A DNA stretch of 64,000 nucleotides, from sequence record PV577657; one strand, given 5' to 3'. Under the pieces are notes generated by a model. That model saw only the letters and a program-made list of their open reading frames with translations, searched no databases and was not told where the DNA came from. Shown in pieces: positions 27,690 to 37,969 of this stretch. A program made the position numbers and the translations under genes. How positions within the stretch are numbered: position 1 is the stretch's first letter; each line of letters starts with the position of its first letter. The stretch comes from Escherichia phage vB_EcoS_MM-1.

Positions 27690-27776
27690 TGGTGCTGGGC
27701 ACAGGATTCGAACCTGTAACGGGATTACTCCTCCTGATTACAAATCAGGTGCATTCAACCATTCTGCCAACCCAGC
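27690..27776 (-). tRNA. tRNA, type II (long variable arm), anticodon loop UUUGUAA (anticodon UGU)
   Basis: 7-bp acceptor GCTGGGT/GCCCAGC, Ser-like D-loop GGTTGAA, T-loop TTCGAAT, encoded CCA; anticodon and body type do not match a standard isotype. Confidence 0.5.
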
Positions 27777-27784
27777 AGAACCCG

Positions 27785-27949
27785 TTATTTCAACGGGATT
27801 TCTTTTTCAATAACAGGAGACTTATCAGTCATAACCGCCATTGCCATTTGTTGTAGAAATTCAAAGGTGAAGGCTACACGTTCTTCACCAATCTCTACTT
27901 CTACACGTTTCTTTTGTTTATCGATCTTGACTTTTAGGTTATCAGCCAT
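27785..27949 (-). CDS. small hypothetical protein
   Basis: 54-aa ORF below track cutoff. Confidence 0.3.
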   Translation of the reverse strand: MADNLKVKIDKQKKRVEVEIGEERVAFTFEFLQQMAMAVMTDKSPVIEKEIPLK

Positions 27950-28193
27950 TAGAGAGTACAGTACTGGTAGTTGGCAATACTACAGATGAAGCAACAGTGT
28001 TTAAATGCTTTCCCCAGTCTAGGTTAAATTGTTTTCGAAACTCTTCATAAGGTTCTTCTGGATAAAAGCTAAAACCTCCTTTCTCATCATTCAGGATAAC
28101 AGAGCCGTCAGTTTGTTCGTATGCTCGGTATGTTTCTCCAATAACAATAACTCGTTTTTCGGTACTTTTATTACGAAACTCAAAAACGTGCAT
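27942..28193 (-). CDS. hypothetical protein
   Basis: 83 aa. Confidence 0.4.
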   Translation of the reverse strand: MHVFEFRNKSTEKRVIVIGETYRAYEQTDGSVILNDEKGGFSFYPEEPYEEFRKQFNLDWGKHLNTVASSVVLPTTSTVLSNG

Positions 28194-28209
28194 AATGTTT
28201 CCTTAAAGT

Positions 28210-28285
28210 TGGAGCGGCTAGAGGGAATCGAACCCTACTCAGCGAGGCTTGGAAGGCCTGCGGCACAACCCGTGTGCTTAACCGC
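28210..28285 (-). tRNA. tRNA-Gly (UCC)
   Basis: acceptor GCGGTTA/TAGCCGC, anticodon loop CUUCCAA, T-loop TTCGATT, discriminator U, CCA encoded. Confidence 0.65.
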
Positions 28286-28293
28286 TTATTGTT

Positions 28294-28369
28294 TGGCTGG
28301 AGAAGGAGGAATCGAACCTACCATTAACGGAGTCAAAGGCCGTTGTGCTAACCGTTACACTACTCTCCA
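28294..28369 (-). tRNA. tRNA-Gln (UUG)
   Basis: U1-A72 acceptor, anticodon loop CUUUGAC, discriminator G. Confidence 0.65.
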
Positions 28370-28375
28370 ATTATT

Positions 28376-28451
28376 TGGCTGGGATGCCACGGATCGAACG
28401 TGGAACCTTCGGAGTCAGAGGCCGACGATCTGCCAATTGATCTACATCCCA
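28376..28451 (-). tRNA. tRNA-Gln (CUG)
   Basis: U1-A72, anticodon loop CUCUGAC, same architecture as the neighbouring Gln. Confidence 0.65.
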
Positions 28452-28463
28452 ATAATTTTTATT

Positions 28464-28658
28464 CTACGGAAAAATTGTTGTTGGCTCAGATTCTTCCAAA
28501 CGTTTGCCTTCATGATCAACACGAATAACGCCGCATCCTTCGCAAATCACAACTGCACCATAACCTTCTTTGACCTCAGCTTCTGTAATCAAACCAGAAA
28601 GATCACCAGTATCTTTACCCCACATATCAATGGAGCATTGTTTGCAGAAATCAGCCAT
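28464..28658 (-). CDS. small Cys-containing protein
   Basis: 64 aa with CxxC pairs. Confidence 0.35.
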   Translation of the reverse strand: MADFCKQCSIDMWGKDTGDLSGLITEAEVKEGYGAVVICEGCGVIRVDHEGKRLEESEPTTIFP

Positions 28659-28683
28659 ATTTTATTTCCTATTTAAGTTAATT

Positions 28684-28760
28684 TGGGGTGGCTAGTGAAA
28701 TTCGAATCCACATAGGCCTGATTCACAATCAGGATCATTAACCAATTATGATATAGCCAC
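28684..28760 (-). tRNA. tRNA-His (GUG)
   Basis: 5' GTGGCTA, anticodon loop UUGUGAA, 3' end AGCCACCCCA. Confidence 0.7.
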
Positions 28761-29126
28761 AATTGAAAACTCGCAGGGTTAGCGAAACCTTCCTCAATTA
28801 GCATGTTCTAGAATACTAATCAAGTTATCTCCTATTGCACGCAGCTCAAGACGAGTACGAATTTTCAATTGTGGCGGCTCTCAGAAACTCTTCTACTCTA
28901 GTCTTAGCAGCTTACTCCCGAACGCATGTCGGGGAAGTCTTACTAAGCGCATCAAATAGCACCGTTACACTTTGAGCCATTGGTGTATCAAGAAGCAGAA
29001 GGACTTGAACCTTCACGAGATAGACCATTTATCTCAGCCGCTTTATGAGGTATGTTGCAGGGAGTGGATGTTCCCTATAAACCTTTTAGGCAGCCCCGTC
29101 TACCGATTCCGGCATACTTCAGGATT

Positions 29127-29221
29127 TGGAGGTAGGTAAGGGGATCGAACCCTTACACCGTATCACTACGATCAACCGATTTCAAGTCGGAGTCCAGCGC
29201 CAGCCATTGGATTGACCTACC
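29127..29221 (-). tRNA. tRNA-Ser (UGA)
   Basis: 95 nt, long variable arm with 6-bp stem, anticodon loop CUUGAAA. Confidence 0.55.
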
Positions 29222-29233
29222 ATATAAATTGTT

Positions 29234-29324
29234 TGGCGGAAGAGGAGAGATTTGAACTCTCAAGCCGTTTTACCAGTCAGCCACTTTCCAAGCGGTTTTC
29301 GTCACCAATTCGATTTGCTCTTCC
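29234..29324 (-). tRNA. tRNA-Ser (GGA)
   Basis: 91 nt type II, anticodon loop UUGGAAA, discriminator G. Confidence 0.6.
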
Positions 29325-29436
29325 AATAACAAGATGATGCCTCTATCACACCAGGCAGTTACGCCTCGCTGGGATTCGAACCCATTAAAACAGCTCAACC
29401 GAGATAGTAGGTTTAATTTACTCTGACCATCAAATT

Positions 29437-29513
29437 TGGTGCGTGACAAGGGATTCGAACCCTCAAAACCCGACTTCTAAGGACGGTATGTATGCCAATT
29501 CCATCAATCACGC
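29437..29513 (-). tRNA. tRNA, anticodon loop CUUAGAA (UAG, Leu-type) with short variable arm
   Basis: good acceptor and T-arm; anticodon stem has one U-U mismatch; type I body is unusual for Leu. Confidence 0.45.
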
Positions 29514-29518
29514 GTATT

Positions 29519-29597
29519 TGGTGGAGAATAACGGAATCGAACCGTTCTGATGTCCTCGGTGCAAGCGAGGTGTCCACTCCATGCAGACCCATTCCCC
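29519..29597 (-). tRNA. tRNA-Ala (UGC)
   Basis: G3-U70 pair in acceptor, anticodon loop CUUGCAC, discriminator A. Confidence 0.65.
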
Positions 29598-29810
29598 AAA
29601 TTATTTAGTTTACTAAGGCTATTAGCTCGGCGTAACTACAGCACCTTCGCTTCGAGCGGAAGGAACCGCGTCATCTCGCAAACCCGATACACTATTCAGT
29701 TGCCACTGAATCTAGTGGACTAATCTAGAACTTCTCCCGAATCGTAGGGATCGTGCTTTTTGGCAGCCAGTCCTAGGTCGAACTAATACCTTAGTGAACT
29801 ATGATGAGGA

Positions 29811-29880
29811 TTTCTCCTCATCAATTTATATAAATATTATAACAAGAAATTAAGCATTAAGCAACTGCGTTTTTCTTGAA
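29811..29880 (-). promoter_or_regulatory. conserved early promoter reading into tRNA genes
   Basis: TTGCTT -35, TATAAT -10, conserved leader; no ORF follows. Confidence 0.55.
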
Positions 29881-29882
29881 AT

Positions 29883-29961
29883 TGGTAGATCGCCTGGGAC
29901 TCGAACCCAGAACCTTCCGATTAAAAGTCGGATGCTACTAAACCTATTGAGCTAGCGATCT
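29883..29961 (-). tRNA. tRNA-Lys (UUU)
   Basis: anticodon loop CUUUUAA, T-loop TTCGAGT. Confidence 0.65.
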
Positions 29962-29962
29962 A

Positions 29963-30130
29963 TTAGTAACCATTATACACTTCTTTAATAGAGTGGACTT
30001 TTAAGTAAGGGTGATTAGTACTAAACTCTACCATTACTTCATCCCAATTTTTACCATAATGAGCGAGTAAGGATTTTGATGTATTCTTACCTAACCGTTT
30101 GTCACTTACTACTAATCGAAATACTTTCAT
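29963..30130 (-). CDS. small hypothetical protein
   Basis: 55-aa ORF with GAGGA RBS, between tRNA genes. Confidence 0.3.
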   Translation of the reverse strand: MKVFRLVVSDKRLGKNTSKSLLAHYGKNWDEVMVEFSTNHPYLKVHSIKEVYNGY

Positions 30131-30150
30131 TTCGAAATCCTCTATTAAAA

Positions 30151-30228
30151 TGGAAGCGGGTGCAGGAATCGAACCTACCTCTTTCTAGCTTATGAGACTA
30201 GCGATCTCTACCAGAGATCTAACCCGCA
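30151..30228 (-). tRNA. tRNA-Met/Ile2-type (CAU)
   Basis: anticodon loop CUCAUAA; position 1-72 reads as U-U mismatch. Confidence 0.5.
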
Positions 30229-30234
30229 ATTGTT

Positions 30235-30310
30235 TGGTCAGTGCGGCAGGACTCGAACCTGCGACCCGAAGCATCCAAGGCTCCCACGCTACCAACTGCG
30301 CTACGCACTG
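30235..30310 (-). tRNA. tRNA-Pro (UGG)
   Basis: C1-G72, anticodon loop CUUGGAU, discriminator A. Confidence 0.65.
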
Positions 30311-30319
30311 TTAATTCTT

Positions 30320-30517
30320 TTATTGTGGAGGAATATTAATAATTCGTCCGTCTACACAATAAACGGTACTAGGAATTGTACTATATATGTAGAAATTCTT
30401 TATATTACTCTCTCCGCCACAGAAATTTTTAGCAAATTCATACTCTTTATTAATGGTTGAGTCAAGTTTAAAACAACCAGTAAGTAGGAATACAGACAGC
30501 AGTAAAACTTTTTTCAT
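30320..30517 (-). CDS. small lipoprotein
   Basis: 65 aa; signal peptide with lipobox LLTGC. Confidence 0.45.
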   Translation of the reverse strand: MKKVLLLSVFLLTGCFKLDSTINKEYEFAKNFCGGESNIKNFYIYSTIPSTVYCVDGRIINIPPQ

Positions 30518-30727
30518 TTTGCTTTCCTTCTCAACACTTTATAAGGTATATTATACAGAGAATTAAGCATAATAGCAAATGAATTTTTAATAAATTTACT
30601 TATTGTGTAGGCCACCTGGAGGCTACCAACCCCACGGCTGACAAAGAAGTTTGCGAGACCTCTCTTAAGTGCCAGAATAGACCCGCCGATCTATCGGAAC
30701 CTACATAATAAGTAAACTTTATAGTGT

Positions 30728-30848
30728 CATTCTAGACAGGACTCGAACCTGTTATCACTTGTGCGGACTTACGAGAACCATTCTTTCACTCGAATCGAAC
30801 GAGCTTCTGCCCTCGCCAAGCTGGTTTCCCCATCAACCACGCTAGAAT
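30728..30848 (-). ncRNA. 121-nt tRNA-like element
   Basis: perfect 7-bp terminal helix (attctag / ctagaat), canonical T-arm and a D-arm-like stem, about 45 nt of extra internal sequence. Confidence 0.3.
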
Positions 30849-30970
30849 GTTTGATTGTTTTCAGTGCAAGAGTCCGAGTCTTGGACACGACCGCTTCGCA
30901 AGTACATAGGCAGCTTATCATGAGTCAGCACTTCCGAATTGCTAGCTCCGTGTTCTGCACTGAAATTTTA

Positions 30971-31318
30971 TTAGTTTAACCGTAAAGTATTATCTACTTC
31001 ACCATTAATTGTTCGGCATTCTTCTGGGATTGCTGGTGTAGCCTTATATTCCCACCATTCAGAACCGTCGTATTCACCACGTTCTAACCAAGTTCCATCA
31101 GTAAACCACACGTTACCATAAAGCAATTGCCCACCGAAACCAGAATCATATTTAAAGTCTAGATTATTTAGAAAATCTTCAATATCTTTTTCTGTATAAC
31201 CTACGGGTAACACCCAAACTTCTTTGTCCCCATAATAACCGAATTCTATCTTAATACACTTAACTTCAGAATTAATATTCTTTAAGGCAAGTAACAATTC
31301 TTCTTTAGCATTAATCAT
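30971..31318 (-). CDS. hypothetical protein
   Basis: 115 aa. Confidence 0.5.
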   Translation of the reverse strand: MINAKEELLLALKNINSEVKCIKIEFGYYGDKEVWVLPVGYTEKDIEDFLNNLDFKYDSGFGGQLLYGNVWFTDGTWLERGEYDGSEWWEYKATPAIPEECRTINGEVDNTLRLN

Positions 31319-31344
31319 AGCATATTTCTCGTACTAGTTTAATT

Positions 31345-31421
31345 TGGCGCGACCGATGGGATTTGAACCCACATTCCCTCCCGTGACAGAGGAGTACCAT
31401 TACCAAGCCAGCCCCGGTCGC
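31345..31421 (-). tRNA. tRNA-Asp (GUC)
   Basis: anticodon loop CUGUCAC, discriminator G. Confidence 0.65.
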
Positions 31422-31430
31422 ATAATTCAT

Positions 31431-31616
31431 TTACTCAGCTTTGAGTTTTTCAATAGCTGCATTAAGTTCTTTAAGAAACTTTTTTCGTACATTAAGACGG
31501 TTGAGACTTACTAGTATATCATGTTTAAGTTCTTCGATGTATTTCTTCTCAACTTCAATATTGTTGATAGTGCTATCACGATGAACTTCTAGCTGTGCAA
31601 TTACATTCTTGGACAT
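31431..31616 (-). CDS. small coiled-coil protein
   Basis: 61 aa. Confidence 0.35.
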   Translation of the reverse strand: MSKNVIAQLEVHRDSTINNIEVEKKYIEELKHDILVSLNRLNVRKKFLKELNAAIEKLKAE

Positions 31617-31718
31617 GCTTGTTTCCTCAGTTATTAATGAAAATGGTATCTGTGACTGAATTCGATGTCAGCAATGATAGCTGGTTGGCTACCGGTTTAC
31701 TTAACTCTACACAGAATT

Positions 31719-31800
31719 TGGCGGGCCGTGTAGGATTCGAACCTACGTTGTCTTTCGACATGGATTAACAGTCCACCGCCAAACCGCTTGGCTAACGACC
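31719..31800 (-). tRNA. tRNA-Asn (GUU)
   Basis: anticodon loop CUGUUAA; variable region about 13 nt. Confidence 0.55.
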
Positions 31801-31953
31801 CTAAATTTATATTGCTGACTAGGATTTTCACCTAGACGGAGTTAGCACCGTAGCGTGTAGCGGCATACCTCTCCAAACCGTGCCTCATCTTTCAATTACG
31901 GAGACAGTGTTCCTACGCGTGCCTGAATTGATTTAACAACTCTTTCAGCAAAT

Positions 31954-32029
31954 TGGACGACCGCATGAGATTTGAACTCACATAAAAAGGATTTGCAATC
32001 CTTCGCCTAAGCCATTCAGCCAACGGTCG
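31954..32029 (-). tRNA. tRNA-Cys (GCA)
   Basis: anticodon loop UUGCAAA, discriminator U. Confidence 0.65.
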
Positions 32030-32098
32030 ATTTATCTTGTTCTGTCATGTTGCTTCTCCAGTTCAATTTATGTAATTATTATACAGAACTTTTGGAAA

Positions 32099-32386
32099 CT
32101 AAGCAACTACATTTTTTAAAAATTTGATGCCTTTCTTTTTCTTCTTATATTTCCACGTTAAGGGATTCTGTCGATTATGAACGCTTGAGATCTTTGTCTC
32201 GTCAAAGTTCTTCAATATCATGTAATCACAGGATAATTGTTCTAATGGAATGTGATCACCGTCAAAAGCGTATACATAAGGCTGTTGACTAGCACGATAA
32301 TGATAGACTTTGTTAATTCTACGTTTCAGCAACTTATCCGCGCAGTAAATAAAGAAGTTTTCAGGATGCATCAGCAGCTCCCTCAA
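32099..32386 (-). CDS. hypothetical protein
   Basis: 95 aa; conserved promoter/leader upstream. Confidence 0.45.
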   Translation of the reverse strand: MRELLMHPENFFIYCADKLLKRRINKVYHYRASQQPYVYAFDGDHIPLEQLSCDYMILKNFDETKISSVHNRQNPLTWKYKKKKKGIKFLKNVVA

Positions 32387-32469
32387 TTTGGTGCACCCTG
32401 TTCGTATCGAACGAACCTCTCAAGCTCTTCAGGCAAGCGCTAATCCATCTCAGCTAAAGGTGCAAATTT

Positions 32470-32546
32470 TGGCAAACCTACTAGGACTTGAACCTAGACC
32501 GTACGGTTTTGGAGACCGACATGCTGTCCAGTAACACTCTAGGAAT
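32470..32546 (-). ncRNA. tRNA-like, Trp-type anticodon arm (CCA); possible pseudo-tRNA
   Basis: T-arm and anticodon loop CUCCAAA present but acceptor stem has two adjacent U-U mismatches. Confidence 0.35.
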
Positions 32547-32553
32547 GCAGGAT

Positions 32554-32630
32554 TGGCGTCCTGTGCGGGGATCGAACCCACAAATCCTACCTTGAAAGGG
32601 TAGTGACTTTACCAGTTTGTCTAACAGGAC
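32554..32630 (-). tRNA. tRNA-Glu (UUC)
   Basis: 5' GTCCTGT, anticodon loop CUUUCAA, 3' ACAGGACGCCA. Confidence 0.65.
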
Positions 32631-32637
32631 TTAAATT

Positions 32638-32728
32638 TGGTGTTGGATGATGGAGTCGAACCACCCGAGACCCTTCCGAGTCGGCAGATTTACAGTCTGC
32701 TTCGCTACCTCTACGATACTAATCCAAC
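32638..32728 (-). tRNA. tRNA-Tyr (GUA)
   Basis: 91 nt type II, anticodon loop CUGUAAA, discriminator A. Confidence 0.65.
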
Positions 32729-32856
32729 ATATTTAAAAGTATTCAAATACTAGTTTAAACACTTTTAGATATGTTTCCAAATTAGATAACTATTATATCA
32801 AGTTTTATGGCACTGAGCAAGTCAAATTTTAAAGAACTTGCTCAGTGCTGTATTAG

Positions 32857-33132
32857 TTAGTCGAACTTAGGAGCGACAGTTAAGGAGAATGGAAGTTCGA
32901 AAACTTCTTCGCCCTCATCACTAACAGTAATTACACGACCTTTAAGTTCAGACATTGAAATATCAATATCAGCTTTTGCATCTGGAGCCATGCCAGCTTC
33001 AATACATTTAGCTTTAACTTCCGGCAGAAGTTCTACATCGTAGAAATAAAGCCATTCAATCTCACCTTCCCAGCCTTCCCAGGATTTACAGATTGCACTT
33101 TCAATACCAGTTGCTATAACACGATTTTGCAT
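32857..33132 (-). CDS. hypothetical acidic protein
   Basis: 91 aa. Confidence 0.5.
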   Translation of the reverse strand: MQNRVIATGIESAICKSWEGWEGEIEWLYFYDVELLPEVKAKCIEAGMAPDAKADIDISMSELKGRVITVSDEGEEVFELPFSLTVAPKFD

Positions 33133-33222
33133 TCGTTAACTCCTTCATCAATTTATATAACTATTATACCAGAAATTTAAAGCAAAAGGCAAGTACATTT
33201 TTAAAAATTCTGTTTGGAGGAG

Positions 33223-33429
33223 CTAAACTCCAGATTCTTCAGCTAAGTCTAGGCTAATAAGAGATATAGCCATAATTGCTGCTCCGTGTTCTCTTTCTCC
33301 TGTCTCTTTAGCTAGGGTTATAATATCAAGAAATTGCTTATGAAAGTCTGCAACCTCTTGAGTCATACCTGCCTCAGCAATCATGCCTTTAAGCATGAAA
33401 CGTTGTGCGGTAATTTCGGGATTAGCCAT
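33223..33429 (-). CDS. hypothetical protein
   Basis: 68 aa. Confidence 0.45.
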   Translation of the reverse strand: MANPEITAQRFMLKGMIAEAGMTQEVADFHKQFLDIITLAKETGEREHGAAIMAISLISLDLAEESGV

Positions 33430-33587
33430 GTTGTTTCTCCAGTTTCATGTTTAATAGTCTACAAATAAAATCAATGTCTTCATCTGTGCCTAGATCTCTA
33501 TCTTCAAGAGTTGCCTTGAAGTTTTTCGTCAATTCCATGAGGATAACTTCTCTAGAACGACGTGTTGGCGGAGGTGGATGTCTATAC
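33423..33587 (-). CDS. small hypothetical protein
   Basis: 54 aa, AAGGA RBS; stop overlaps next start. Confidence 0.3.
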
Positions 33588-33604
33588 ATCTTATTTCCTT
33601 AAGT

Positions 33605-33681
33605 TGGTAGGGGTGGTGGGATTCGAACCCACAAAACCTGAATTTTAAGTCCAGTACCTATGCCAATTCGATTACACCCCC
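33605..33681 (-). tRNA. tRNA, anticodon loop CUUAAAA (UAA, Leu-type) with short variable arm
   Basis: G1-U72 acceptor, T-loop TTCGAAT; type I body is unusual for Leu. Confidence 0.45.
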
Positions 33682-33782
33682 ATGTAATCAGTTTATTAGT
33701 TGATACATATTATAGCCTAGTGAAAATCCTACTACTAGTCCCACAAACCAACCAATATAATAATCTTTTAGTTTCACAGGTA

Positions 33783-33968
33783 TTATCCTCGTTCAATATC
33801 TAGGGAAACACCGCAGTTAGGATTAATACCTGTACCGTTGCAATTTGAACAAATCCAGATATTGCAAAAAGTATCTCCTGCTTCTGCATCAGAACTTTCA
33901 CCAATTCCCCTACACTCAGGGCAGGCACATTCTTCTAGCTCTTGCTTGAGTTCTTGAAACTTGGACAT
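33783..33968 (-). CDS. small Cys-rich zinc-ribbon-like protein
   Basis: 61 aa with CxCPEC and CSNCNGTG clusters. Confidence 0.45.
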   Translation of the reverse strand: MSKFQELKQELEECACPECRGIGESSDAEAGDTFCNIWICSNCNGTGINPNCGVSLDIERG

Positions 33969-33977
33969 ATAGTCTCC

Positions 33978-34166
33978 TTAGTCAATTACTTTTGAGGCTT
34001 CAAGGGAGTCGATATAGTATACGTTTTCTACCATAATCATATAATCTGCCACTTTATCCATAGCTTGGGCCTCAGAGGTAGCTCTGGCTAACCTATATCC
34101 TTTTTTATATTCATCCGGGTATTCTCTATCTTGAATAAATACAACATAAACTATGTATAATTCCAC
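33978..34166 (-). CDS. small hypothetical protein
   Basis: track ORF 33978..34313 overlaps two tRNAs; trimmed to GTG start after AGGGGA RBS. Confidence 0.3.
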   Translation of the reverse strand: MELYIVYVVFIQDREYPDEYKKGYRLARATSEAQAMDKVADYMIMVENVYYIDSLEASKVID

Positions 34167-34186
34167 TTGTAATCCCCTAATTAAGT

Positions 34187-34264
34187 TGGTGGCTCCCCGA
34201 GGATTCGAACCTACGTACCTTCCGGTTATGAGCCGGGTGCTCATACCATATGAGCTTGAGAACC
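34187..34264 (-). tRNA. tRNA-Met (CAU)
   Basis: anticodon loop CUCAUAA with G-C-rich anticodon stem, D-stem GCTC/GAGC, discriminator A. Confidence 0.55.
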
Positions 34265-34270
34265 AGAATT

Positions 34271-34359
34271 TGGCGGAAGAAGTGGGAATCGAACCCACAA
34301 GGCTATATTTCAAACCGACAGATTAGCAATCTGCTGCAATACCGTTATGCTATTCTTCC
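34271..34359 (-). tRNA. tRNA-Ser (GCU)
   Basis: 89 nt type II, anticodon loop UUGCUAA, discriminator G. Confidence 0.6.
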
Positions 34360-34380
34360 GAATTTATAAGATATATTATA

Positions 34381-34899
34381 TTAGAAATTTAGCTTCATAG
34401 CAAGAAAATTTTTCAAGTTTTCGGTAGACATCTCATCCACATCTACGGGAGAAACAAAGCCGTTTAATTTTCTAGCAAATTTTTCACCCGCAGGATCGTT
34501 GTCTCCGACAGCTACCAATTTAAAAGGTAATAATTTCAGTTGCTTTAATAACGCTTTTCCTGGAGAAGAACCTAACATTGCCAGGGCTGGATAACCAGCG
34601 TTATGTAGCGCAACTGCCTTAAATACAGATTCAGCGATCAATACTACTTTTTCATCTCCATTGAGAGTTTCTAGTCCCCATACACACTGGGTAGTAGAAT
34701 AAGTAAAATATTTAGCTTCAAAGGGACACTTACCATGACCTTTTGGAGCAGAAGGATTATACGTCTGATAGCCTCGCAACATCCCGGAGAAGTCATACAA
34801 CGGGACTGTTAGCCATCCTTCCGGACTTAACCAGCAATGATATTTATCTGTATCAAATCCTCTGGATAAGAGGTGCTGTGTTAGCTCATCAACATTCAT
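34381..34899 (-). CDS. Toprim-domain protein
   Basis: 'LIAES' and 'VAVGDNDPAGEKFA' (E and DxD Toprim motifs); start moved to the ATG after the conserved leader. Confidence 0.45.
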   Translation of the reverse strand: MNVDELTQHLLSRGFDTDKYHCWLSPEGWLTVPLYDFSGMLRGYQTYNPSAPKGHGKCPFEAKYFTYSTTQCVWGLETLNGDEKVVLIAESVFKAVALHNAGYPALAMLGSSPGKALLKQLKLLPFKLVAVGDNDPAGEKFARKLNGFVSPVDVDEMSTENLKNFLAMKLNF

Positions 34900-35074
34900 A
34901 TTTGGTTCCTCTCTCAAATTTATAGATATATTATACAGAGAATTTAGCATTCAAGCAATCAAATTTTTTAACTTTTTAGAGGAAAATCATAGGGCACTTA
35001 AGGGTAGCAGATAAGTGGGGAGGACCAAAATTTGTGACCCCACTAAAAATCCGGGGGCAATTTTTAAAGACCCC

Positions 35075-35103
35075 TTGACATTTTCGCTGGGGTAGTGTAA
35101 AGT
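35075..35103 (+). promoter_or_regulatory. sigma70-type promoter
   Basis: TTGACA, 17-bp spacer, TAAAGT; differs from the conserved early promoter motif. Confidence 0.5.
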
Positions 35104-35165
35104 ATATGTTATGGATGAGTGATCAAAGAGACACACATTTTCTATATACTAGGAGGTGTCAAAAT

Positions 35166-36155
35166 ATGACAGAAGAAGTAGCTAAGAGTCCTGAGACCGT
35201 CGCTAGCGTTGCAGCAGAACTGCACCGTCACGAGGAATCAGATAAGAAAAAGTGGGAGAAGGTCAGAGCCTACGAAGAAAAACATCGTGAACACGATGAT
35301 GAAGAAGAAGATGACGATGATGAACATTGTCATAAATATGGAAAACATAAAATGCAAGAACCAGTAAACGTATTCACTAGTGGCTTCCCTGGCCTACTGG
35401 GTGGTTACCCAGCAAACGCAGGTGCTTTCGGTGGTGAAGGTATGGGACTATTCGGAGCTATCCTAATCGGTGCTCTATTAACCGGCGGATTCGGTGGTTT
35501 CGGTGGATTCGGTGGACGTGGTGTAGTTGGTGAAGGTACCGCAGTTGATGCAGTACTTCAGAACCAAGATACCGCTAGTATTCTAGCAGCTATCAACACT
35601 ACTCGTACAGAGGCTAACCAGGGTACTGGAGCTGTTTTAAGCGCAGTTAACAATGGTTTTAGCCAGACAACCCAAAACCAGAGCCGTGATACTCAGTCTG
35701 TACTAACTACGATCTACGGTACAGATGCTAATCTGTCTAATCAGATCTGCCAGGAAACTCGCAACGTTATTCAGGGTCAGTTCGATCTTTCTCGCCAGAT
35801 TGATCAATCTTTCGCAGCTAACCAGATAGCTCGTGCACAAGATAAGTTTGATTCTGCACAGATCGCTTTCCAGCAGACTTTACAAACTAATAACCAGTTT
35901 GCCGCTGTTCAGGCTCAGATGTGTGCTAACCAGAACTCTCTGGAACGTCAGATCGCTGAATGTTGCTGTGAACTTCAGACTGCGATCGCTGGTGTAACTA
36001 CTGCGCGTATCCAGGATGAGTTAGACGCATGTCGCCTACGTGAAGCAATCGCTGCGGGTAGCGGTGCTAACGGTCAGGTAATTAATCAAATCGCTTTAAG
36101 TCTTGGTGCTATCACTCAGACTCTGGCTGGTCTGCAGGCTAAACTGCCGGCTTAA
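35166..36155 (+). CDS. glycine-zipper membrane protein with acidic/His-rich N-terminus and Gln/Asn-rich C-terminus
   Basis: AGGAGG RBS; 'GLFGAILIGALLTGGFGGFGGFGGRG'; low-complexity Q/N/T C-terminal half with Cys. Confidence 0.55.
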   Translation: MTEEVAKSPETVASVAAELHRHEESDKKKWEKVRAYEEKHREHDDEEEDDDDEHCHKYGKHKMQEPVNVFTSGFPGLLGGYPANAGAFGGEGMGLFGAILIGALLTGGFGGFGGFGGRGVVGEGTAVDAVLQNQDTASILAAINTTRTEANQGTGAVLSAVNNGFSQTTQNQSRDTQSVLTTIYGTDANLSNQICQETRNVIQGQFDLSRQIDQSFAANQIARAQDKFDSAQIAFQQTLQTNNQFAAVQAQMCANQNSLERQIAECCCELQTAIAGVTTARIQDELDACRLREAIAAGSGANGQVINQIALSLGAITQTLAGLQAKLPA

Positions 36156-36176
36156 TATTAAGGGGAGGAGCCCATT

Positions 36177-36593
36177 ATGAGTAAATATGGTTTTGTAAAT
36201 AACGGACTTAATCAAAGTATGGGCTCCCAGCAGCCCATTCCGGGTCTGGATAACCCCTACTTACAACAGTTGCAACAGCGTTTAGCAGAAGCGCAACAGA
36301 TGCAGCAACAACTCCAGCAAAACCCTGGAAGTGTGAGTCCTATGCAAATGATGCAGCAAATGAGCGGGCAGTCGCAAATGCCTCAACAAATGCAGCAACA
36401 GGTGCCTCAGCAGCAAGTTCAGCAACAAACCCAACAACCGCAGGTTTCTGCGGAAGGACAGGCAGTACTAGCCCTTTTCGAAGACTTCGCAAAGACAGAG
36501 GATGGGAAACAGCTTGTATCACTTATGGGTAAGTTTAATAGCTTCTGCCAAAGCCAAGTTGCAAAAGCTCAAAATGGGGGTAGTAACTCCTAA
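36177..36593 (+). CDS. glutamine-rich protein
   Basis: 138 aa, long Q runs; GGGAGGAG RBS. Confidence 0.5.
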   Translation: MSKYGFVNNGLNQSMGSQQPIPGLDNPYLQQLQQRLAEAQQMQQQLQQNPGSVSPMQMMQQMSGQSQMPQQMQQQVPQQQVQQQTQQPQVSAEGQAVLALFEDFAKTEDGKQLVSLMGKFNSFCQSQVAKAQNGGSNS

Positions 36594-36602
36594 GGAGGAA
36601 AT

Positions 36603-36797
36603 ATGTGTTGCAGAAAATCTGTTTCGTGCTGCCCAGTGCCTGTAGCACGTTGTTGCTCTCCAGCAATGTTTACGCAAATACCGGCGTTCAATCCCTTTGC
36701 CTTTAAGCCTACTCTTATCCTGCCCCCTAGAGTAGATTTTCAGTCAAGATTGGCCTCCCGTATGGGTGGTTGCTGTACACCGAGAGTATGGTTCTAA
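36603..36797 (+). CDS. small protein with four Cys-Cys doublets
   Basis: 64 aa; AAGGAGGA RBS. Confidence 0.45.
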   Translation: MCCRKSVSCCPVPVARCCSPAMFTQIPAFNPFAFKPTLILPPRVDFQSRLASRMGGCCTPRVWF

Positions 36798-36806
36798 ACC
36801 AAAAAC

Positions 36807-36840
36807 AAAAGCCCCTGCCGAAAGGTAAGGGGCTTTTTCT
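36807..36840 (+). terminator. rho-independent terminator of plus-strand cassette
   Basis: gcccct / aggggc stem then TTTTTCTTTT. Confidence 0.7.
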
Positions 36841-36846
36841 TTTGCC

Positions 36847-36887
36847 TTAAATACAGAAAAGCCCGCGCTCTCGTAGGAAACGCGGGC
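36847..36887 (-). terminator. rho-independent terminator of SPFH gene
   Basis: gcccgcg / cgcgggc stem, U-run on minus strand. Confidence 0.6.
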
Positions 36888-36912
36888 TTGGTTCGAAGAT
36901 TACGTGTAACTA

Positions 36913-37860
36913 TTACTTGTTACGCATATCCATGATCATTTGACCATCGTAGCCAGTACCTACCACAGTCTGAGGTACACCACCTTGATACTTCTGAGCA
37001 CGGATCATTTCAACTTCCAGTTGTTTCCAACGAATCATTTCAGGAGTAATGGTACGTTGCAATGCGGCGTTAGCTTCAGCTTCTTTCTTAGCTGCGTACA
37101 GTTTAGCATCTGCGTCACGTTCATTAGCAATAGCTTGGTTGTTACGAGCTTCACGATCTGCTTCTGCTTGTTTAACTTTTTGCTGTGCTTCCTGTTCAAC
37201 GCGAGCAAGTTCAGCTTTCGCAGCATTAACTTGCTCTTCACGAACTTTGGTATTCTGTACCTGTTCCATGATTACTGGCGGCAAGGTAATATCCTGAAGG
37301 AATACCTGCTTAACTGTGTAACCATATGGGCGCGCATACTCTTCAACTTCCTGTTGAATTGCAGTTTGCAATTGAGCCTGAATTTTAGCATCAAATAAAT
37401 CTTGTGCTTTAGGTACAGACTTACCAAACTCACGAATAGTAGACAGTAATTTTTCAGTTACATACTTGTCTAGTGCCTGATCCTGAGTACCTGCGTTAAT
37501 ACGGTTAATCGGTGCTTTAGAACCATCAAACTGCAACATAACAGTCAGGTCAACAGTGGATTTAAACTTATCCTGGCTAGGAACCTGAAGTTTATCTAAT
37601 TTTACAGCAATATCTTTTGTACTAAAAGTATCGAAAGATGCAAACGGGTTTACAAGATGGAAGCCCGGCAATACTGGATTAGGGTCTACTTTACCCAGGA
37701 ATGTTTGGGTTTTAACCGTACCATCAGAAACAATAGTATATGAATTAAAAGCTAGGATTAAACCTGCTAAACCAACTACAGCACCAATACCCCAACGTTT
37801 AATAGTACGAATTACTTTCTGCTCAGAAGTCAGTTCTTTCATATTTTTAGTAGCAAACAT
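36913..37860 (-). CDS. SPFH/Band-7 (stomatin/prohibitin-like) membrane protein
   Basis: N-terminal TM, SPFH-like core, C-terminal Ala/Glu/Gln-rich coiled coil. Confidence 0.6.
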   Translation of the reverse strand: MFATKNMKELTSEQKVIRTIKRWGIGAVVGLAGLILAFNSYTIVSDGTVKTQTFLGKVDPNPVLPGFHLVNPFASFDTFSTKDIAVKLDKLQVPSQDKFKSTVDLTVMLQFDGSKAPINRINAGTQDQALDKYVTEKLLSTIREFGKSVPKAQDLFDAKIQAQLQTAIQQEVEEYARPYGYTVKQVFLQDITLPPVIMEQVQNTKVREEQVNAAKAELARVEQEAQQKVKQAEADREARNNQAIANERDADAKLYAAKKEAEANAALQRTITPEMIRWKQLEVEMIRAQKYQGGVPQTVVGTGYDGQMIMDMRNK

Positions 37861-37894
37861 ATATTTCCTTTGTTTTAGTTACAGTTAATAAAAT

Positions 37895-37969
37895 TGGCCG
37901 AGGTGACAGGATTCGAACCTGCATAAAGGAATTTAGAAGACTCCTGCCTCTCCCTTAGACTACACCCCG
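37895..37969 (-). tRNA. tRNA-Arg (UCU)
   Basis: anticodon loop CUUCUAA, T-loop TTCGAAT. Confidence 0.6.

What the first reader, a model, noticed from the sequence alone, without database searches (positions are those of the whole stretch)
27690..34359. Several tRNAs have anticodon and body combinations that do not match standard identity rules
By manual folding: the tRNA at 27690-27776 has a type II, Ser/Leu-like body with anticodon UGU (Thr); those at 29437-29513 and 33605-33681 carry Leu-type anticodons (UAG, UAA) on short-variable-arm bodies; the CAU tRNA at 30151-30228 has a U1-U72 mismatch; the Trp-like element at 32470-32546 has a disrupted acceptor stem. Some may be manual misfolds, others may be genuine atypical or decoding-altering tRNAs or pseudo-tRNAs.
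Basis: seen in the sequence. Interest (0 to 1): 0.5.

Follow-up and report, generated by a model that had tools for sequence, protein, structure and literature searches.

The report
Odd-shaped but genuine phage tRNAs
A T5-like coliphage carries tRNA genes whose shapes break textbook rules (leucine tRNAs without the long arm, threonine and asparagine tRNAs with an extra arm, a tryptophan tRNA with two U·U mismatches). These shapes are conserved families found in many phages that keep the signals for their normal amino acid, not misfolds, dead genes or code-changing tRNAs.

Summary
The window is Escherichia phage vB_EcoS_MM-2 (Tequintavirus). All five structural oddities are real: ARAGORN reproduces each at the stated coordinates and Rfam's tRNA model scores every one above threshold.

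None looks like a misfold, a pseudogene or a decoding-altering tRNA.
- **Leu(UAG) and Leu(UAA):** they belong to a widespread phage family of short-arm tRNA-Leu. It uses only Leu anticodons, has A73 in 71/71 sampled genes and keeps a Leu-type D-loop.
- **Leu(UAG) function:** the gene is identical to BF23 tRNAL1, which GenBank records as an effective amber suppressor after an anticodon swap.
- **Thr(UGU):** it belongs to a phage family with a small hairpin in the variable region, usually capped by a GNRA loop. The ThrRS determinants G1-C72 and C2-G71 are invariant, and G73 or G2-C71 (seryl signals) never occur.
- **CAU tRNA:** it is identical to the gene annotated as initiator tRNA-fMet in T5 and BF23, so U1·U72 is the initiator hallmark.
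- **Trp:** the tandem U2·U71/U3·U70 is conserved while neighbouring pairs covary.

These are most likely cognately charged tRNAs. The remodelled arms may help them evade host tRNA nucleases such as PARIS AriB, but that is inferred.

The parts
27690..27776 (-). tRNA-Thr(UGU), 87 nt. It has a Thr-type acceptor stem (G1-C72, C2-G71, G4-C69, G5-C68, A73), an anticodon arm like E. coli thrU, a Ser-like 3-bp D-stem with an 11-nt D-loop, and an inserted variable arm.
   Evidence: ARAGORN fold. Rfam 60.3 bits. Domain comparison with E. coli tRNAs. About 100 T5-like phages carry it, and Aeromonas T4-like phages carry an 85-nt homologue. Family covariation.
27718..27732 (-). Variable arm of the Thr tRNA: A, GGA, GUAA, UCC, CGUU (1-nt spacer, 3-bp stem, GNRA tetraloop, 4-nt 3' spacer ending in U48).
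   Evidence: 21/26 family members have stems of at least 3 bp, against 29% of shuffles. 21/26 have GNRA loops, against 0.6% of shuffles that combine a stem of at least 3 bp with a GNRA loop. Position 48 covaries perfectly with position 15.
29437..29513 (-). Class I (short-arm) tRNA-Leu(UAG), 77 nt: A73, D-loop GAAUUGGCAUA, variable loop GUUUU, and a U·U in the anticodon stem.
   Evidence: Identical to BF23 tRNAL1, which its GenBank note records as an effective amber suppressor after an anticodon swap. Family covariation. IMG/VR family.
33605..33681 (-). Class I tRNA-Leu(UAA), 77 nt, a paralogue of the UAG gene (same D-loop and variable loop), with G1·U72 and A73.
   Evidence: At least 95% identical copies in more than 320 T5-like phages. 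G1·U72 occurs in 7/10 family members.
30151..30228 (-). Initiator-like tRNA-Met(CAU), 78 nt: U1·U72, G2-C71, C3-G70, G4-C69, A11-U24 and U73. It has no run of three G-C pairs in the anticodon stem.
   Evidence: 78/78 identical to T5 T5t14 and BF23 tRNAfM, both annotated 'initiator tRNA fMet'. Phage-wide statistics.
32470..32546 (-). tRNA-Trp(CCA), 77 nt: A1-U72, G73, A9, an anticodon arm like E. coli trpT, and tandem U2·U71/U3·U70.
   Evidence: Rfam 36.3 bits. The Klebsiella phage SEL21 homologue keeps both U·U pairs while 6-67, 7-66 and the T-stem covary. The same tandem recurs in other divergent phage Trp tRNAs.
31719..31801 (-). tRNA-Asn(GUU), 83 nt, with an inserted variable hairpin (31747-31759: GUC-GAAA-GAC-AAC), G73 and an anticodon arm like E. 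coli asnT. It is not in the original finding but shows the same phenomenon.

Best explanation
These are functional phage tRNAs that read their normal codons with their normal amino acids. Their architecture differs from the host's only in parts that the relevant E. coli synthetases do not need.

**Leu.** The two Leu tRNAs are tRNA-Leu that have lost the long variable arm. They keep the LeuRS set: A73, A14, A15-U48, G18G19 in an 11-nt D-loop, and A20a.

**Thr and Asn.** These tRNAs have gained a small hairpin in the variable region, usually capped by a GNRA loop. They keep the ThrRS set (G1-C72, C2-G71, G4-C69, G5-C68, G35, U36) and the AsnRS set (G73, GUU).

**CAU.** This is the phage's initiator-type tRNA. 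Its unpaired 1-72 together with G2-C71, C3-G70 and G4-C69 is the formylase signal.

**Trp.** It keeps G73, A1-U72 and CCA, and carries a selected tandem U·U.

**What they do.** They supply codons that the AT-rich phage uses far more than its host does (CUA 4.5-fold, UUA and ACA 2-fold).

**Why the odd shapes persist (inferred, not shown).** The remodelled arms and stems probably make the phage copies poor substrates for host tRNA-targeting defence nucleases. The best case is PARIS AriB. It cuts E. coli Thr(UGU), Asn(GUU) and Lys(UUU) between positions 40 and 41, next to where the extra arm emerges, and it also contacts the D-loop.

The folds, the conservation, the retained identity nucleotides and the codon usage are shown here. 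Aminoacylation and nuclease evasion are inferred.
For: **Folds.**

**Class I Leu**
- Ten genes from eight phage groups (T5-like, Providencia, FelixO1-like, Vequintavirinae, two Vibrio, Xanthomonas, Myxococcus phages) are 97.5% paired, with compensatory changes in 18/20 pairs (0/500 shuffles reach this). Their anticodons are only UAG, UAA, CAG and CAA.
Of these, 71 have at least 6/7 acceptor pairs, and all 71 have A73.
- The window gene is identical to BF23 tRNAL1, noted as an effective amber suppressor after anticodon replacement.
- The Giegé and Eriani review (PMC9976931) states that E. coli LeuRS needs A73, A15-U48, G18G19 and A20a. It does not need the anticodon or the long arm.

**V-arm Thr**
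- 22 aligned family members are 98.2% paired, with 16/20 pairs compensatory.
- Pairs 1-72 (G-C) and 2-71 (C-G) are invariant in 22/22, while pairs 3-7 vary.
- The discriminator is A or U, never G.
- The tertiary 15-48 pair covaries perfectly (G-C in 15, A-U in 7).
- 21/26 hairpins have GNRA loops.
- The bacterial Thr identity set, and C2-G71 as an antideterminant against SerRS, come from PMC9976931.
- Bas33 (HildyBeyeler) carries this 87-nt Thr gene (one base different from the window's) and has no Lys(UUU). PMC12409363 reports that supplying T5 Lys(UUU) alone rescues Bas33 from PARIS, whereas tRNA-less T7 needs Lys plus Thr.

**V-arm Asn**
- 87 unique IMG/VR genes, with 44 distinct stems among the variable-region hairpins.
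- 46/84 hairpins found have GNRA loops.
- G73 in 79/87.

**Initiator**
- Identical to the T5 and BF23 'initiator tRNA fMet'.
- Among 240 unique phage CAU tRNAs, 77 have a 1-72 mismatch, and U·U is the commonest type (24).
- Of those 77, 75 have G2-C71, 73 have C3-G70 and 65 have G4-C69.

**Trp.** The U·U tandem is conserved while other pairs covary.

**Codon usage and alignment to orthologues**
- CUA 16.3 against 3.6 per 1000, UUA 24.0 against 12.3, ACA 11.7 against 5.6.
- Window CTA, TTA, ACA, AAY and TGG codons align to L, L, T, N and W in T5 orthologues. T5 has conventional class II Leu and class I Thr and Asn tRNAs, and a different, also atypical, Trp allele.
Against: - No charging data exist for any of these exact molecules except the BF23 suppressor note, and that note does not say which amino acid is inserted.
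- E. coli LeuRS failed to charge the one characterised bacterial type I tRNA-Leu, Streptomyces coelicolor tRNA-Leu(CAA) (PMC6614811).
- ThrRS and AsnRS are class II enzymes that approach tRNA from the variable-loop side (general knowledge). An extra arm could therefore hinder them.
- The window's Asn allele has several SerRS determinants: G73, C72, G2-C71, C11-G24 and G30-C40.
- The initiator-like tRNA lacks the three consecutive G-C pairs in the anticodon stem and has U73 instead of A73.
- The Trp tRNA lacks G2-C71, G3-C70, G4-C69 and G5-C68.
- For the nuclease-evasion step, the Thr and Asn anticodon stems still carry the AriB site sequences (UAAUCA and UAAUCC).
- Phage V-arm and class I Thr(UGU) tRNAs do not differ in that site.
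- No nuclease is known that would select for a short-arm Leu or a U·U-bearing Trp.
Confidence: 0.78

Rival explanations
1. Decoding-altering (mischarged) tRNAs. In this reading the long-arm UGU or GUU tRNA is charged by SerRS, LeuRS or TyrRS, or the short-arm UAG and UAA tRNAs are charged by a non-Leu synthetase. The phage would then deliberately mistranslate Thr, Asn or Leu codons, as nematode nev-tRNAs do.
For: - The Thr tRNA has a Ser-like D-arm (0.80 identity to serT), C11-G24, a long variable region and A73.
- The window Asn allele has G73, G1-C72, G2-C71, C11-G24 and G30-C40, which overlap the SerRS set.
- SerRS and LeuRS ignore anticodons (PMC9976931).
- There is a precedent: nev-tRNAs (PMC3333845).
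Against: - **Thr family:** G2-C71 and G73 never occur in 26 unique genes (0/26). C2-G71, an antideterminant against SerRS, is invariant. The discriminator is U in many members, which excludes a conserved LeuRS A73 signal.
- **Arm geometry:** a 3-bp stem with a 3-4-nt 3' spacer. E. coli Ser has 5-7 bp and a 1-nt spacer.
- **Asn family:** most members have U1-A72 (53/87), as E. coli tRNA-Asn does, and 33/87 have C2-G71. [quoted passage not shown]
- **Class I Leu family:** it uses four different Leu anticodons and no others, with A73 in 71/71.
- **Codons:** they align to the canonical residues in T5 orthologues, and the phage uses CUA, UUA and ACA heavily.
- **Bas33:** its PARIS rescue needs only Lys(UUU). 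This implies that its V-arm Thr tRNA supports normal translation.
Confidence: 0.06
2. Pseudo-tRNAs, that is, decaying gene copies with no function. This would apply especially to the Trp element with the 'disrupted' acceptor stem and to the CAU tRNA.
For: - The Trp tRNA has the lowest Rfam score of the five (36.3 bits) and lacks four acceptor determinants.
- The T5 notes say its (different) Trp allele cannot be converted to an amber suppressor.
- BF23's Trp-slot gene has a mutated anticodon.
- The same GenBank record flags other tRNAs in the cluster as pseudogenes.
Against: - All six encode CCA and fold as full cloverleaves.
- Each is conserved at 95-100% identity in hundreds of phages.
- More distant homologues show compensatory changes in every helix.
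- The Trp U·U tandem is retained in an 80%-identical Klebsiella phage gene whose other stem pairs have covaried. It recurs in other divergent phage Trp genes.
- Failure of suppressor conversion is expected for Trp, because the anticodon is a TrpRS determinant.
Confidence: 0.03
3. They act mainly outside translation. In this reading the odd tRNAs serve mainly as decoys or competitive inhibitors of host tRNA-targeting nucleases or other tRNA-binding defence proteins, and decoding is secondary.
For: - PMC12409363 raises the possibility that overexpressed viral tRNAs inhibit AriB by competition.
- The Thr and Asn tRNAs keep the AriB site sequence although the rest of the body is remodelled.
- The cluster also encodes several tRNA-like 'stable RNAs' of unknown function.
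Against: - The synthetase identity nucleotides are strictly conserved (G1-C72 and C2-G71 in Thr, A73 in Leu, G73 in Asn). So are CCA ends and the tertiary 15-48 pair. These point to selection for charging and ribosome use.
- The BF23 Leu body works as a suppressor, so it is translated with.
- Codon usage matches the tRNA set.
Confidence: 0.1

Closest known systems
The tRNA gene clusters of phages T5 and BF23 (records NC_005859 and NC_042564, annotated with amber-suppressor conversion tests)
   Same: The gene order and flanking ORFs are the same. The CAU initiator tRNA is identical in all three phages. The class I Leu(UAG) is identical to BF23 tRNAL1. The Ser(GCU), Cys, Arg(UCU) and other tRNAs are the same as in T5.
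   Different: T5 itself carries conventional alleles at the same slots: a class II Leu(UAG) of 85 nt, a class I Thr(UGU) of 75 nt and a class I Asn of 78 nt. It has a different odd Trp (71 nt, U1·U72) and no Leu(UAA). The annotations do not mention the arm differences.
Type I tRNA-Leu(CAA) of Streptomyces coelicolor, and animal mitochondrial tRNA-Leu
   Same: [quoted passage not shown]
   Different: The phage family has an E. coli-type Leu D-loop (GAAUUGGYAUA), occurs with four Leu anticodons, and is carried by viruses of many bacterial phyla. E. coli LeuRS did not charge the Streptomyces tRNA, whereas the BF23 and window tRNA works as a suppressor in E. coli.
Nematode nev-tRNAs (class II tRNAs with Gly or Ile anticodons, PMC3333845)
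   Same: They have a long variable arm on a tRNA whose anticodon is not Leu, Ser or Tyr.
   Different: According to the paper's title (and, from my own knowledge, its experiments), nev-tRNAs keep a Leu identity and decode an alternative code for leucine. The phage Thr and Asn families instead conserve the cognate Thr and Asn determinants and lack Ser and Leu determinants. Their arm is a 3-4-bp mini-hairpin, usually GNRA-capped.
[quoted passage not shown]
   Same: These are the same three isoacceptors in the same phage family. Phage copies differ from host copies and restore translation when host tRNAs are cut.
   Different: The T5 variants are class I tRNAs with substitutions at or near the 40|41 cleavage site. 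The window's Thr and Asn keep the host-like site (UAAUCA, UAAUCC) but have a different D-arm and an added arm. Their resistance has not been tested directly.
E. coli initiator tRNA-fMet (metY)
   Same: An unpaired 1-72, G2-C71, C3-G70, G4-C69, purine11-pyrimidine24 and a CAU anticodon.
   Different: It has U·U instead of C·A, U73 instead of A73, and only one G-C pair among positions 29-41, 30-40 and 31-39 where E. coli has three.

Membership tests
tRNA-Leu (substrate of E. coli-type LeuRS): window 29437-29513 and 33605-33681 | Discriminator A73 | tested here: met
   A73 in both, in 10/10 aligned relatives and in 71/71 IMG/VR family members found with a pattern that did not constrain it.
tRNA-Leu (substrate of E. 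coli-type LeuRS) | Hinge elements A14, A15-U48, G18G19 and A20a in a 3-bp-stem, 11-nt D-arm | tested here: met
   The D-loop is GAAUUGGCAUA, against E. coli GAAUUGGUAGA. U48 is the last base of GUUUU. A14, G18, G19 and U48 are invariant, and A15 is present in 9/10.
tRNA-Leu (substrate of E. coli-type LeuRS) | Long (class II) variable arm | tested here: not met
   The variable loop is 5 nt. According to PMC9976931 the arm is characteristic of tRNA-Leu but is not required by E. coli LeuRS.
tRNA-Leu (substrate of E. coli-type LeuRS) | Anticodon-independent charging and use in translation in E. coli | tested here: inconclusive
   The identical BF23 tRNAL1 is noted as an effective amber suppressor after a swap to a CUA anticodon.
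tRNA-Thr (substrate of bacterial ThrRS): window 27690-27776 | G1-C72, C2-G71, G4-C69, G5-C68 and G35, U36 | tested here: met
   All are present. Pairs 1-72 and 2-71 are invariant in 22/22 family members while pairs 3-7 vary. The identity set comes from PMC9976931.
tRNA-Thr (substrate of bacterial ThrRS) | Class I architecture (4-5-nt variable loop, 4-bp D-stem) | tested here: not met
   The variable region is 15 nt with a hairpin, and the D-stem has 3 bp with an 11-nt loop.
tRNA-Ser (substrate of E. coli SerRS), considered for the UGU and GUU tRNAs | G73, G2-C71, C11-G24, and a long variable arm with a 5-7-bp stem and 1-nt 3' spacer | tested here: not met
   The Thr tRNA has A73, C2-G71 (an antideterminant), a 3-bp stem and a 4-nt spacer; only C11-G24 fits. 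G73 and G2-C71 occur in 0/26 unique family genes. The Asn allele meets G73, G2-C71 and C11-G24, but not the arm geometry or R4-Y69.
Bacterial initiator tRNA-fMet: window 30151-30228 | Unpaired 1-72 with G2-C71, C3-G70 and G4-C69 (formylase determinants), plus purine11-pyrimidine24 | tested here: met
   U1·U72, G2-C71, C3-G70, G4-C69 and A11-U24. The gene is identical to the T5 and BF23 genes annotated as initiator. 77/240 phage CAU tRNAs share the pattern.
Bacterial initiator tRNA-fMet | Three consecutive G-C pairs (29-41, 30-40, 31-39) in the anticodon stem, and A73 | tested here: not met
   The stem is CUAGU/GCUAG and the discriminator is U73. Only 11/77 phage initiator-like tRNAs have GGG/CCC, and 23/77 have U73.
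tRNA-Trp (substrate of bacterial TrpRS): window 32470-32546 | G73, A1-U72, A9 and anticodon CCA | tested here: met
   All are present. The anticodon arm is 0.88 identical to E. coli trpT.
tRNA-Trp (substrate of bacterial TrpRS) | G2-C71, G3-C70, G4-C69 and G5-C68 (weaker determinants) | tested here: not met
   U2·U71, U3·U70, C4-G69 and C5-G68. The U·U tandem is conserved in SEL21 and in other divergent phage Trp genes.
tRNA-Asn (substrate of bacterial AsnRS): window 31719-31801 | G73 and G34, U35, U36, A37 | tested here: met
   All are present. G73 occurs in 79/87 unique V-arm Asn genes.
nev-tRNA-like recoding tRNAs | Class II body that carries the identity set of Leu (or Ser), combined with a non-cognate anticodon | tested here: not met
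   The arm is present, but Leu and Ser determinants are not conserved, while Thr and Asn determinants are. The amino acid actually attached is not testable with these tools.
tRNA pseudogene | Loss of pairing and conserved nucleotides, with no purifying selection | tested here: not met
   Families are 97.5-98.2% paired with abundant compensatory change. CCA is encoded.

The most novel reading that the evidence does not exclude
Remodelling of the variable arm is a general phage counter-defence. Phages insert a small, usually GNRA-capped hairpin next to the anticodon stem of ANN-decoding tRNAs (Thr UGU, Asn GUU, perhaps the UAU tRNAs). They delete the long arm of tRNA-Leu and loosen the Trp acceptor stem. 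As a result, host immune tRNases that read tRNA shape (PARIS AriB and relatives) cannot dock, while synthetases that do not read those parts still charge the tRNA correctly. This would be an escape route distinct from the anticodon-loop and anticodon-stem point mutations described so far.
Probability: 0.35. Interest if true: 0.75.

Novelty: new variant of a known kind. Interest (0 to 1): 0.6.

Why it matters
Textbooks and the current identity review state that long variable arms belong to Leu, Ser and (bacterial) Tyr, and that tRNA-Leu is class II everywhere except animal mitochondria. This analysis found three things that cut across those statements.

- Short-arm tRNA-Leu made up 55 of 132 unique tRNA-Leu genes in viral contigs fetched for other tRNAs. 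The same pattern occurs at only 68 loci in 185,579 bacterial and archaeal species genomes.
- Thr(UGU) and Asn(GUU) are two of the three isoacceptors that the PARIS nuclease cuts, and a BASEL phage carrying the arm-bearing Thr gene is already in published PARIS experiments.

A concrete hypothesis, that arm insertion shields the 40|41 cleavage site, is therefore testable with existing reagents.

There are practical consequences too. Annotation pipelines flag or miss several tRNAs in this cluster. Codon-supply or recoding inferences that rely on arm length as a proxy for isotype would be wrong.

Tried and rejected
1. **Extended Trp acceptor helix.** In the window, G(-2)C(-1) could pair with G73 and C74. 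I checked whether this rescues the U·U mismatches. The flanks are not conserved (SEL21 has TT), so I rejected it.
2. **Relaxed AriB site.** If the extra arm shields the AriB site, V-arm Thr(UGU) genes might keep the host-like UAAUCA site more often than class I phage Thr(UGU). The counts were 10/35 against 21/92, no useful difference. The hosts of these contigs are unknown, so the test is uninformative.
3. **Whole-molecule and per-domain identity to 30 E. coli tRNAs.** This only gave clear answers for the Thr D-arm (Ser-like), the Thr, Asn and Trp anticodon arms (cognate-like) and the Leu(UAG) D-arm (Leu-like). It was ambiguous for Leu(UAA) and for acceptor stems.
4. **Codon-to-residue comparison with T5, rutana and PSTCR5 orthologues.** It shows canonical meanings. 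It cannot detect partial mistranslation, because host tRNAs decode the same codons.
5. **Literature.** Five full-text searches and several papers gave no description of short-arm Leu or arm-bearing Thr or Asn tRNAs in phages. The supplementary files of the PARIS paper were not available.
6. **MAFFT alignment of the Thr family.** It misplaced the 3' strand of the variable stem, so I analysed the hairpin with a direct parser and shuffles instead of the count of structure pairs.
7. **Not attempted.** Isotype-specific covariance scoring (tRNAscan-SE) is not available here.

Full report
**What the window is**

The 6.9-kb stretch is 100% identical to Escherichia phage vB_EcoS_MM-2 (PV577658.1, Tequintavirus). 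Window coordinates equal record coordinates plus 108. The finding lies in the T5-type tRNA cluster on the minus strand.

**Checking the observation**

ARAGORN reports 19 tRNAs, and the five named ones sit at exactly the stated coordinates. Its cloverleaves reproduce each feature:
- Thr(UGU) is 87 nt with a 15-nt variable region: 1 nt, a 3-bp stem, a GUAA loop, then 4 nt.
- Leu(UAG) and Leu(UAA) are both 77 nt with the 5-nt variable loop GUUUU.
- The CAU tRNA has U1·U72 and U73.
- Trp(CCA) has A1-U72 followed by U2·U71 and U3·U70.

Rfam's tRNA model scores them at 60.3, 47.5, 57.4, 43.6 and 36.3 bits, against a threshold of 29. The GenBank record annotates all five as tRNAs and does not flag them as pseudogenes.

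A sixth case was missed. Asn(GUU) at 31719-31801 is 83 nt with a 13-nt variable hairpin, GUC-GAAA-GAC-AAC.

**Comparison with T5 and BF23**

The curated T5 record lists the same cluster with notes on amber-suppressor conversion tests. T5 has conventional alleles at the same syntenic slots:
- Thr(UGU), 75 nt, class I.
- Leu(UAG), 85 nt, class II.
- Asn, 78 nt, class I.
- A different odd Trp (71 nt, U1·U72).
- A homing endonuclease where MM-2 has Leu(UAA).

Rutana also has conventional Leu and Thr alleles. Bas33 has the same alleles as MM-2. The slots are therefore polymorphic among close relatives.

The CAU tRNA is 78/78 identical to T5 T5t14 and BF23 tRNAfM, both annotated 'initiator tRNA fMet'. 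The window's Leu(UAG) is 77/77 identical to BF23 tRNAL1. Its note reads 'replacement of the anticodon with CUA sequence converts this tRNA into effective amber suppressor'.

**The short-arm Leu tRNAs**

Both genes have A73, a 3-bp D-stem and the D-loop GAAUUGGCAUA; E. coli tRNA-Leu has GAAUUGGUAGA. U48 can pair with A15. According to the identity review, these are the elements E. coli LeuRS uses. The anticodon and the long arm are dispensable (PMC9976931).

BLAST found the Leu(UAA) gene in more than 320 T5-like phages. It found Leu(UAG) in about 160, plus 74-77-nt relatives in FelixO1-like, Vequintavirinae, Vibrio, Xanthomonas and Myxococcus phages.

Ten such genes were aligned:
- They are 97.5% paired over 20 pairs.
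- 18 pairs have changes on both sides; 0/500 shuffles reach this.
- Versions with the 3' partners slid by 1-3 columns fall to 39-47% paired.
- The anticodons are UAG, UAA, CAG and CAA, all Leu.

I then scanned IMG/VR with a pattern that fixes only the D-loop, a YAR anticodon, a 5-nt variable loop and the T-loop. Of 73 unique genes, 71 have at least 6/7 acceptor pairs, and all 71 have A73, which the pattern did not constrain.

The same pattern occurs at only 68 loci in one genome each of 185,579 bacterial and archaeal species, none of them enterobacterial. In viral loci fetched for other tRNAs, 55 of 132 unique tRNA-Leu genes are short-armed.

This is therefore a large phage family of class I tRNA-Leu. 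The known analogues are animal mitochondrial tRNA-Leu and the type I tRNA-Leu(CAA) of Streptomyces coelicolor. E. coli LeuRS could not charge the Streptomyces tRNA (PMC6614811), which is a caveat. The BF23 suppressor note partly answers that caveat.

**The long-arm Thr tRNA**

The acceptor stem is GCUGGGU/GCCCAGC with A73. It carries all four bacterial Thr acceptor determinants: G1-C72, C2-G71, G4-C69 and G5-C68.

The anticodon arm, CCUGA-UUUGUAA-UCAGG, is closest to E. coli thrU. The D-arm is closest to serT, with identity 0.80. The tRNA is thus a mosaic: Thr at the two ends that ThrRS reads, and Ser-like in the core.

About 100 T5-like phages carry it, and Aeromonas T4-like phages have an 85-nt homologue. 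An IMG/VR scan gave 33 contigs and 26 unique genes.

In a 22-sequence alignment:
- The cloverleaf is 98.2% paired, with compensatory change in 16/20 pairs.
- Pairs 1-72 (G-C) and 2-71 (C-G) never vary, while pairs 3-7 vary freely.
- The discriminator is A or U, never G.
- The tertiary 15-48 pair covaries perfectly: G-C in 15 sequences and A-U in 7. The last base of the long variable region therefore behaves as a normal position 48.

The arm itself is a 1-nt spacer, a 3-bp stem (13 different stems) and a 3-4-nt 3' spacer. GNRA loops occur in 21/26, against 0.6% of shuffles that combine a stem of at least 3 bp with a GNRA loop. This geometry resembles E. coli tRNA-Tyr (3 bp with a 3-nt spacer). 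It does not resemble tRNA-Ser (5-7 bp with a 1-nt spacer).

G73 and G2-C71, which SerRS needs, are absent throughout the family. C2-G71 is a listed antideterminant against SerRS. The conserved signal is threonine identity.

**The long-arm Asn tRNA**

This tRNA has G73, GUU and an anticodon arm 0.88 identical to E. coli asnT. Homologues in Proteus, Providencia and Klebsiella T4-like phages have different but pairing stems: GUC/GAC, GUUC/GGAC, GUUC/GAAC, GUCA/UGAC and AUCC/GGAU.

The scan gave 87 unique genes with variable regions of 11-19 nt:
- 44 distinct stems.
- GNRA loops in 46/84 hairpins found.
- G73 in 79/87.
- U1-A72, as in E. coli tRNA-Asn, in 53.

The MM-2 allele itself has several SerRS-type nucleotides (G1-C72, G2-C71, C11-G24, G30-C40). 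Some cross-charging by SerRS cannot be excluded for this allele.

**The CAU tRNA**

It has U1·U72, G2-C71, C3-G70, G4-C69 and A11-U24. These match the formyltransferase determinants and the initiator-specific purine11-pyrimidine24 pair.

Among 240 unique phage CAU tRNAs in the fetched loci, 77 have an unpaired 1-72:
- U·U is the commonest type (24), followed by C·A (22).
- 75/77 have G2-C71 and 73/77 have C3-G70.
- Only 11/77 have the full GGG/CCC run in the anticodon stem.
- 23/77 have U73.

The mismatch is therefore the known initiator hallmark. The departures from E. coli tRNA-fMet, namely the missing three G-C pairs and U73, are typical of phage initiator-like tRNAs.

**The Trp tRNA**

It keeps G73, A1-U72, A9, CCA and a trpT-like anticodon arm.

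The Klebsiella phage SEL21 gene is 80% identical. Its pairs 6-67 and 7-66 and its whole T-stem have changed in a compensatory way, yet it retains U2·U71 and U3·U70.

Of 98 unique phage Trp tRNAs, 85 have fully paired acceptor stems. The commonest defect is this same tandem, found in five sequences; four of these are divergent from the window's type and come from different contigs. The 'disrupted' stem is a selected motif. Its purpose is unknown.

**Decoding context**

In 59 window ORFs and 58 E. coli ORFs called the same way, codon frequencies per 1000 are:

| Codon | Phage window | E. coli sample |
|---|---|---|
| CUA | 16.3 | 3.6 |
| UUA | 24.0 | 12.3 |
| ACA | 11.7 | 5.6 |

Window codons align to the canonical residue in T5 orthologues:
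- CTA to Leu, 47/52.
- TTA to Leu, 72/77.
- ACA to Thr, 42/50.
- AAY to Asn, 142/159.
- TGG to Trp, 32/36.

This fits ordinary decoding, although it cannot exclude low-level mistranslation.

**Why the shapes might be kept**

PMC12409363 shows that the PARIS nuclease AriB cuts E. coli Lys(UUU), Thr(UGU) and Asn(GUU) between positions 40 and 41 (site U36AAUC|A41). Its modelled second subunit contacts D-loop U16-U17. Restoring the E. coli site in T5 tRNA-Lys does not restore cleavage, so the rest of the tRNA body matters.

The window's Thr and Asn keep the site sequence. They have a different D-arm and an extra hairpin that emerges three to four nucleotides 3' of the cut.

Bas33 (HildyBeyeler) carries the 87-nt Thr gene and no Lys(UUU). 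The paper reports that T5 Lys(UUU) alone rescues Bas33, whereas T7, which has no tRNAs, needs Lys plus Thr.

This is indirect evidence that the arm-bearing Thr tRNA is functional and survives AriB. It is my inference; the paper does not discuss variable arms.

In unselected 'bystander' tRNAs from the fetched loci, long variable regions are rare in class I isotypes: His 0/99, Lys(UUU) 2/107, Val(UAC) 1/101. They are enriched in three groups:
- Asn(GUU), 6/67 in loci chosen for other tRNAs.
- Thr(UGU), 8/98 in loci chosen for other tRNAs.
- tRNAs with a UAU anticodon, 27/39.

A test comparing the 36-41 site between arm-bearing and class I phage Thr(UGU) was uninformative. No nuclease is known that would explain the Leu or Trp variants.

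**Verdict**

It is wrong that they violate identity rules or alter decoding.

The initiator case is already known and annotated. The BF23 Leu gene had been tested functionally. I found no published description of short-arm tRNA-Leu or arm-bearing tRNA-Thr and tRNA-Asn as conserved phage families.

I classify them as new variants of a known kind, with a testable link to anti-phage tRNases.

Noticed in passing
IMG/VR loci L027-L365 (not in the window): tRNAs with anticodon UAU (nominally Ile, AUA codon): 27 of 39 unique genes have a 15-22-nt variable arm whose loop carries a conserved AGAU(U/A)(A/G) motif. They were bystanders in loci fetched for other tRNAs. The nematode nev-tRNA-Ile(UAU) is a possible parallel.
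   Followed up: partly
window 28684-28761 (-): The tRNA-His(GUG) gene has T rather than G at position -1 (28761). It therefore lacks the encoded G-1 that bacterial HisRS normally requires, and the discriminator is C73. T5 and BF23 annotate a 78-nt gene that includes this extra 5' base.
   Followed up: no
window 38472-38543 (-): A tRNA-like element (Rfam tRNA 35.5 bits; 'tRNA-OTHER' in GenBank) with no CCA end lies inside the homologue of the T5 stable RNA 'RNAX'. ARAGORN calls the T5 and Bas33 copies Ser(ACU) with an 8-bp acceptor stem.
   Followed up: partly
window 28210-28285, 29127-29221, about 29238-29324, 34187-34264 (-): ARAGORN misses four further tRNAs. They are Gly(UCC), 98.7% identical to T5 tRNAG1; Ser(UGA) with U73; a Ser(GGA)-like gene; and an Ile2-type CAU tRNA, 97.4% identical to T5 tRNAI2. 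GenBank flags the Gly and Ser(UGA) genes, and also the His, Ala and Tyr genes, as pseudogenes.
   Followed up: partly
window 28762-29116, 29617-29788, 30604-30849, 31644-31716, 37970-38599 (-): Homologues (85-99% identity) of the T5 'stable RNAs with unknown functions' (RNAIII, RNAI, RNA1, RNA2H, RNAIV, RNA2, RNA3, RNAX) lie between the tRNA genes. T5 and BF23 annotate RNA1, RNA2 and RNA3 as tRNA-like.
   Followed up: partly
window 29437-29597 (-); L018: tRNA slots in T5-like phages are polymorphic: class I or class II Leu, and class I or arm-bearing Thr and Asn, occur at the same syntenic positions in close relatives. The adjacent pair Ala(UGC, 79 nt) and Leu(UAG, 77 nt) is also adjacent in the unrelated Vequintavirinae phage EspYZU15. 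This suggests that tRNA cassettes are exchanged between phage families.
   Followed up: partly
genome loci L147-L214: The short-arm Leu pattern occurs at 68 loci in bacterial and archaeal genomes. Examples are three loci in the Tumebacillus avium chromosome and several in Effusibacillus, Psychroserpens, Tenacibaculum and Tepidibacter. I did not check whether these are prophage-borne or host genes.
   Followed up: no
L016 14033-14115 (Providencia phage PSTCR5): An initiator-like CAU tRNA with A1·A72, G2-C71 and C3-G70 also carries a variable-arm hairpin (83 nt). Arm insertion is therefore not limited to Thr and Asn.
   Followed up: no
window 27690-37969 (-): All 19 tRNA genes that ARAGORN called in the cluster encode their 3' CCA. 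G1·U72 wobble at the top of the acceptor stem is common in the short-arm Leu family: 7/10 aligned genes and 12/71 IMG/VR genes.
   Followed up: partly
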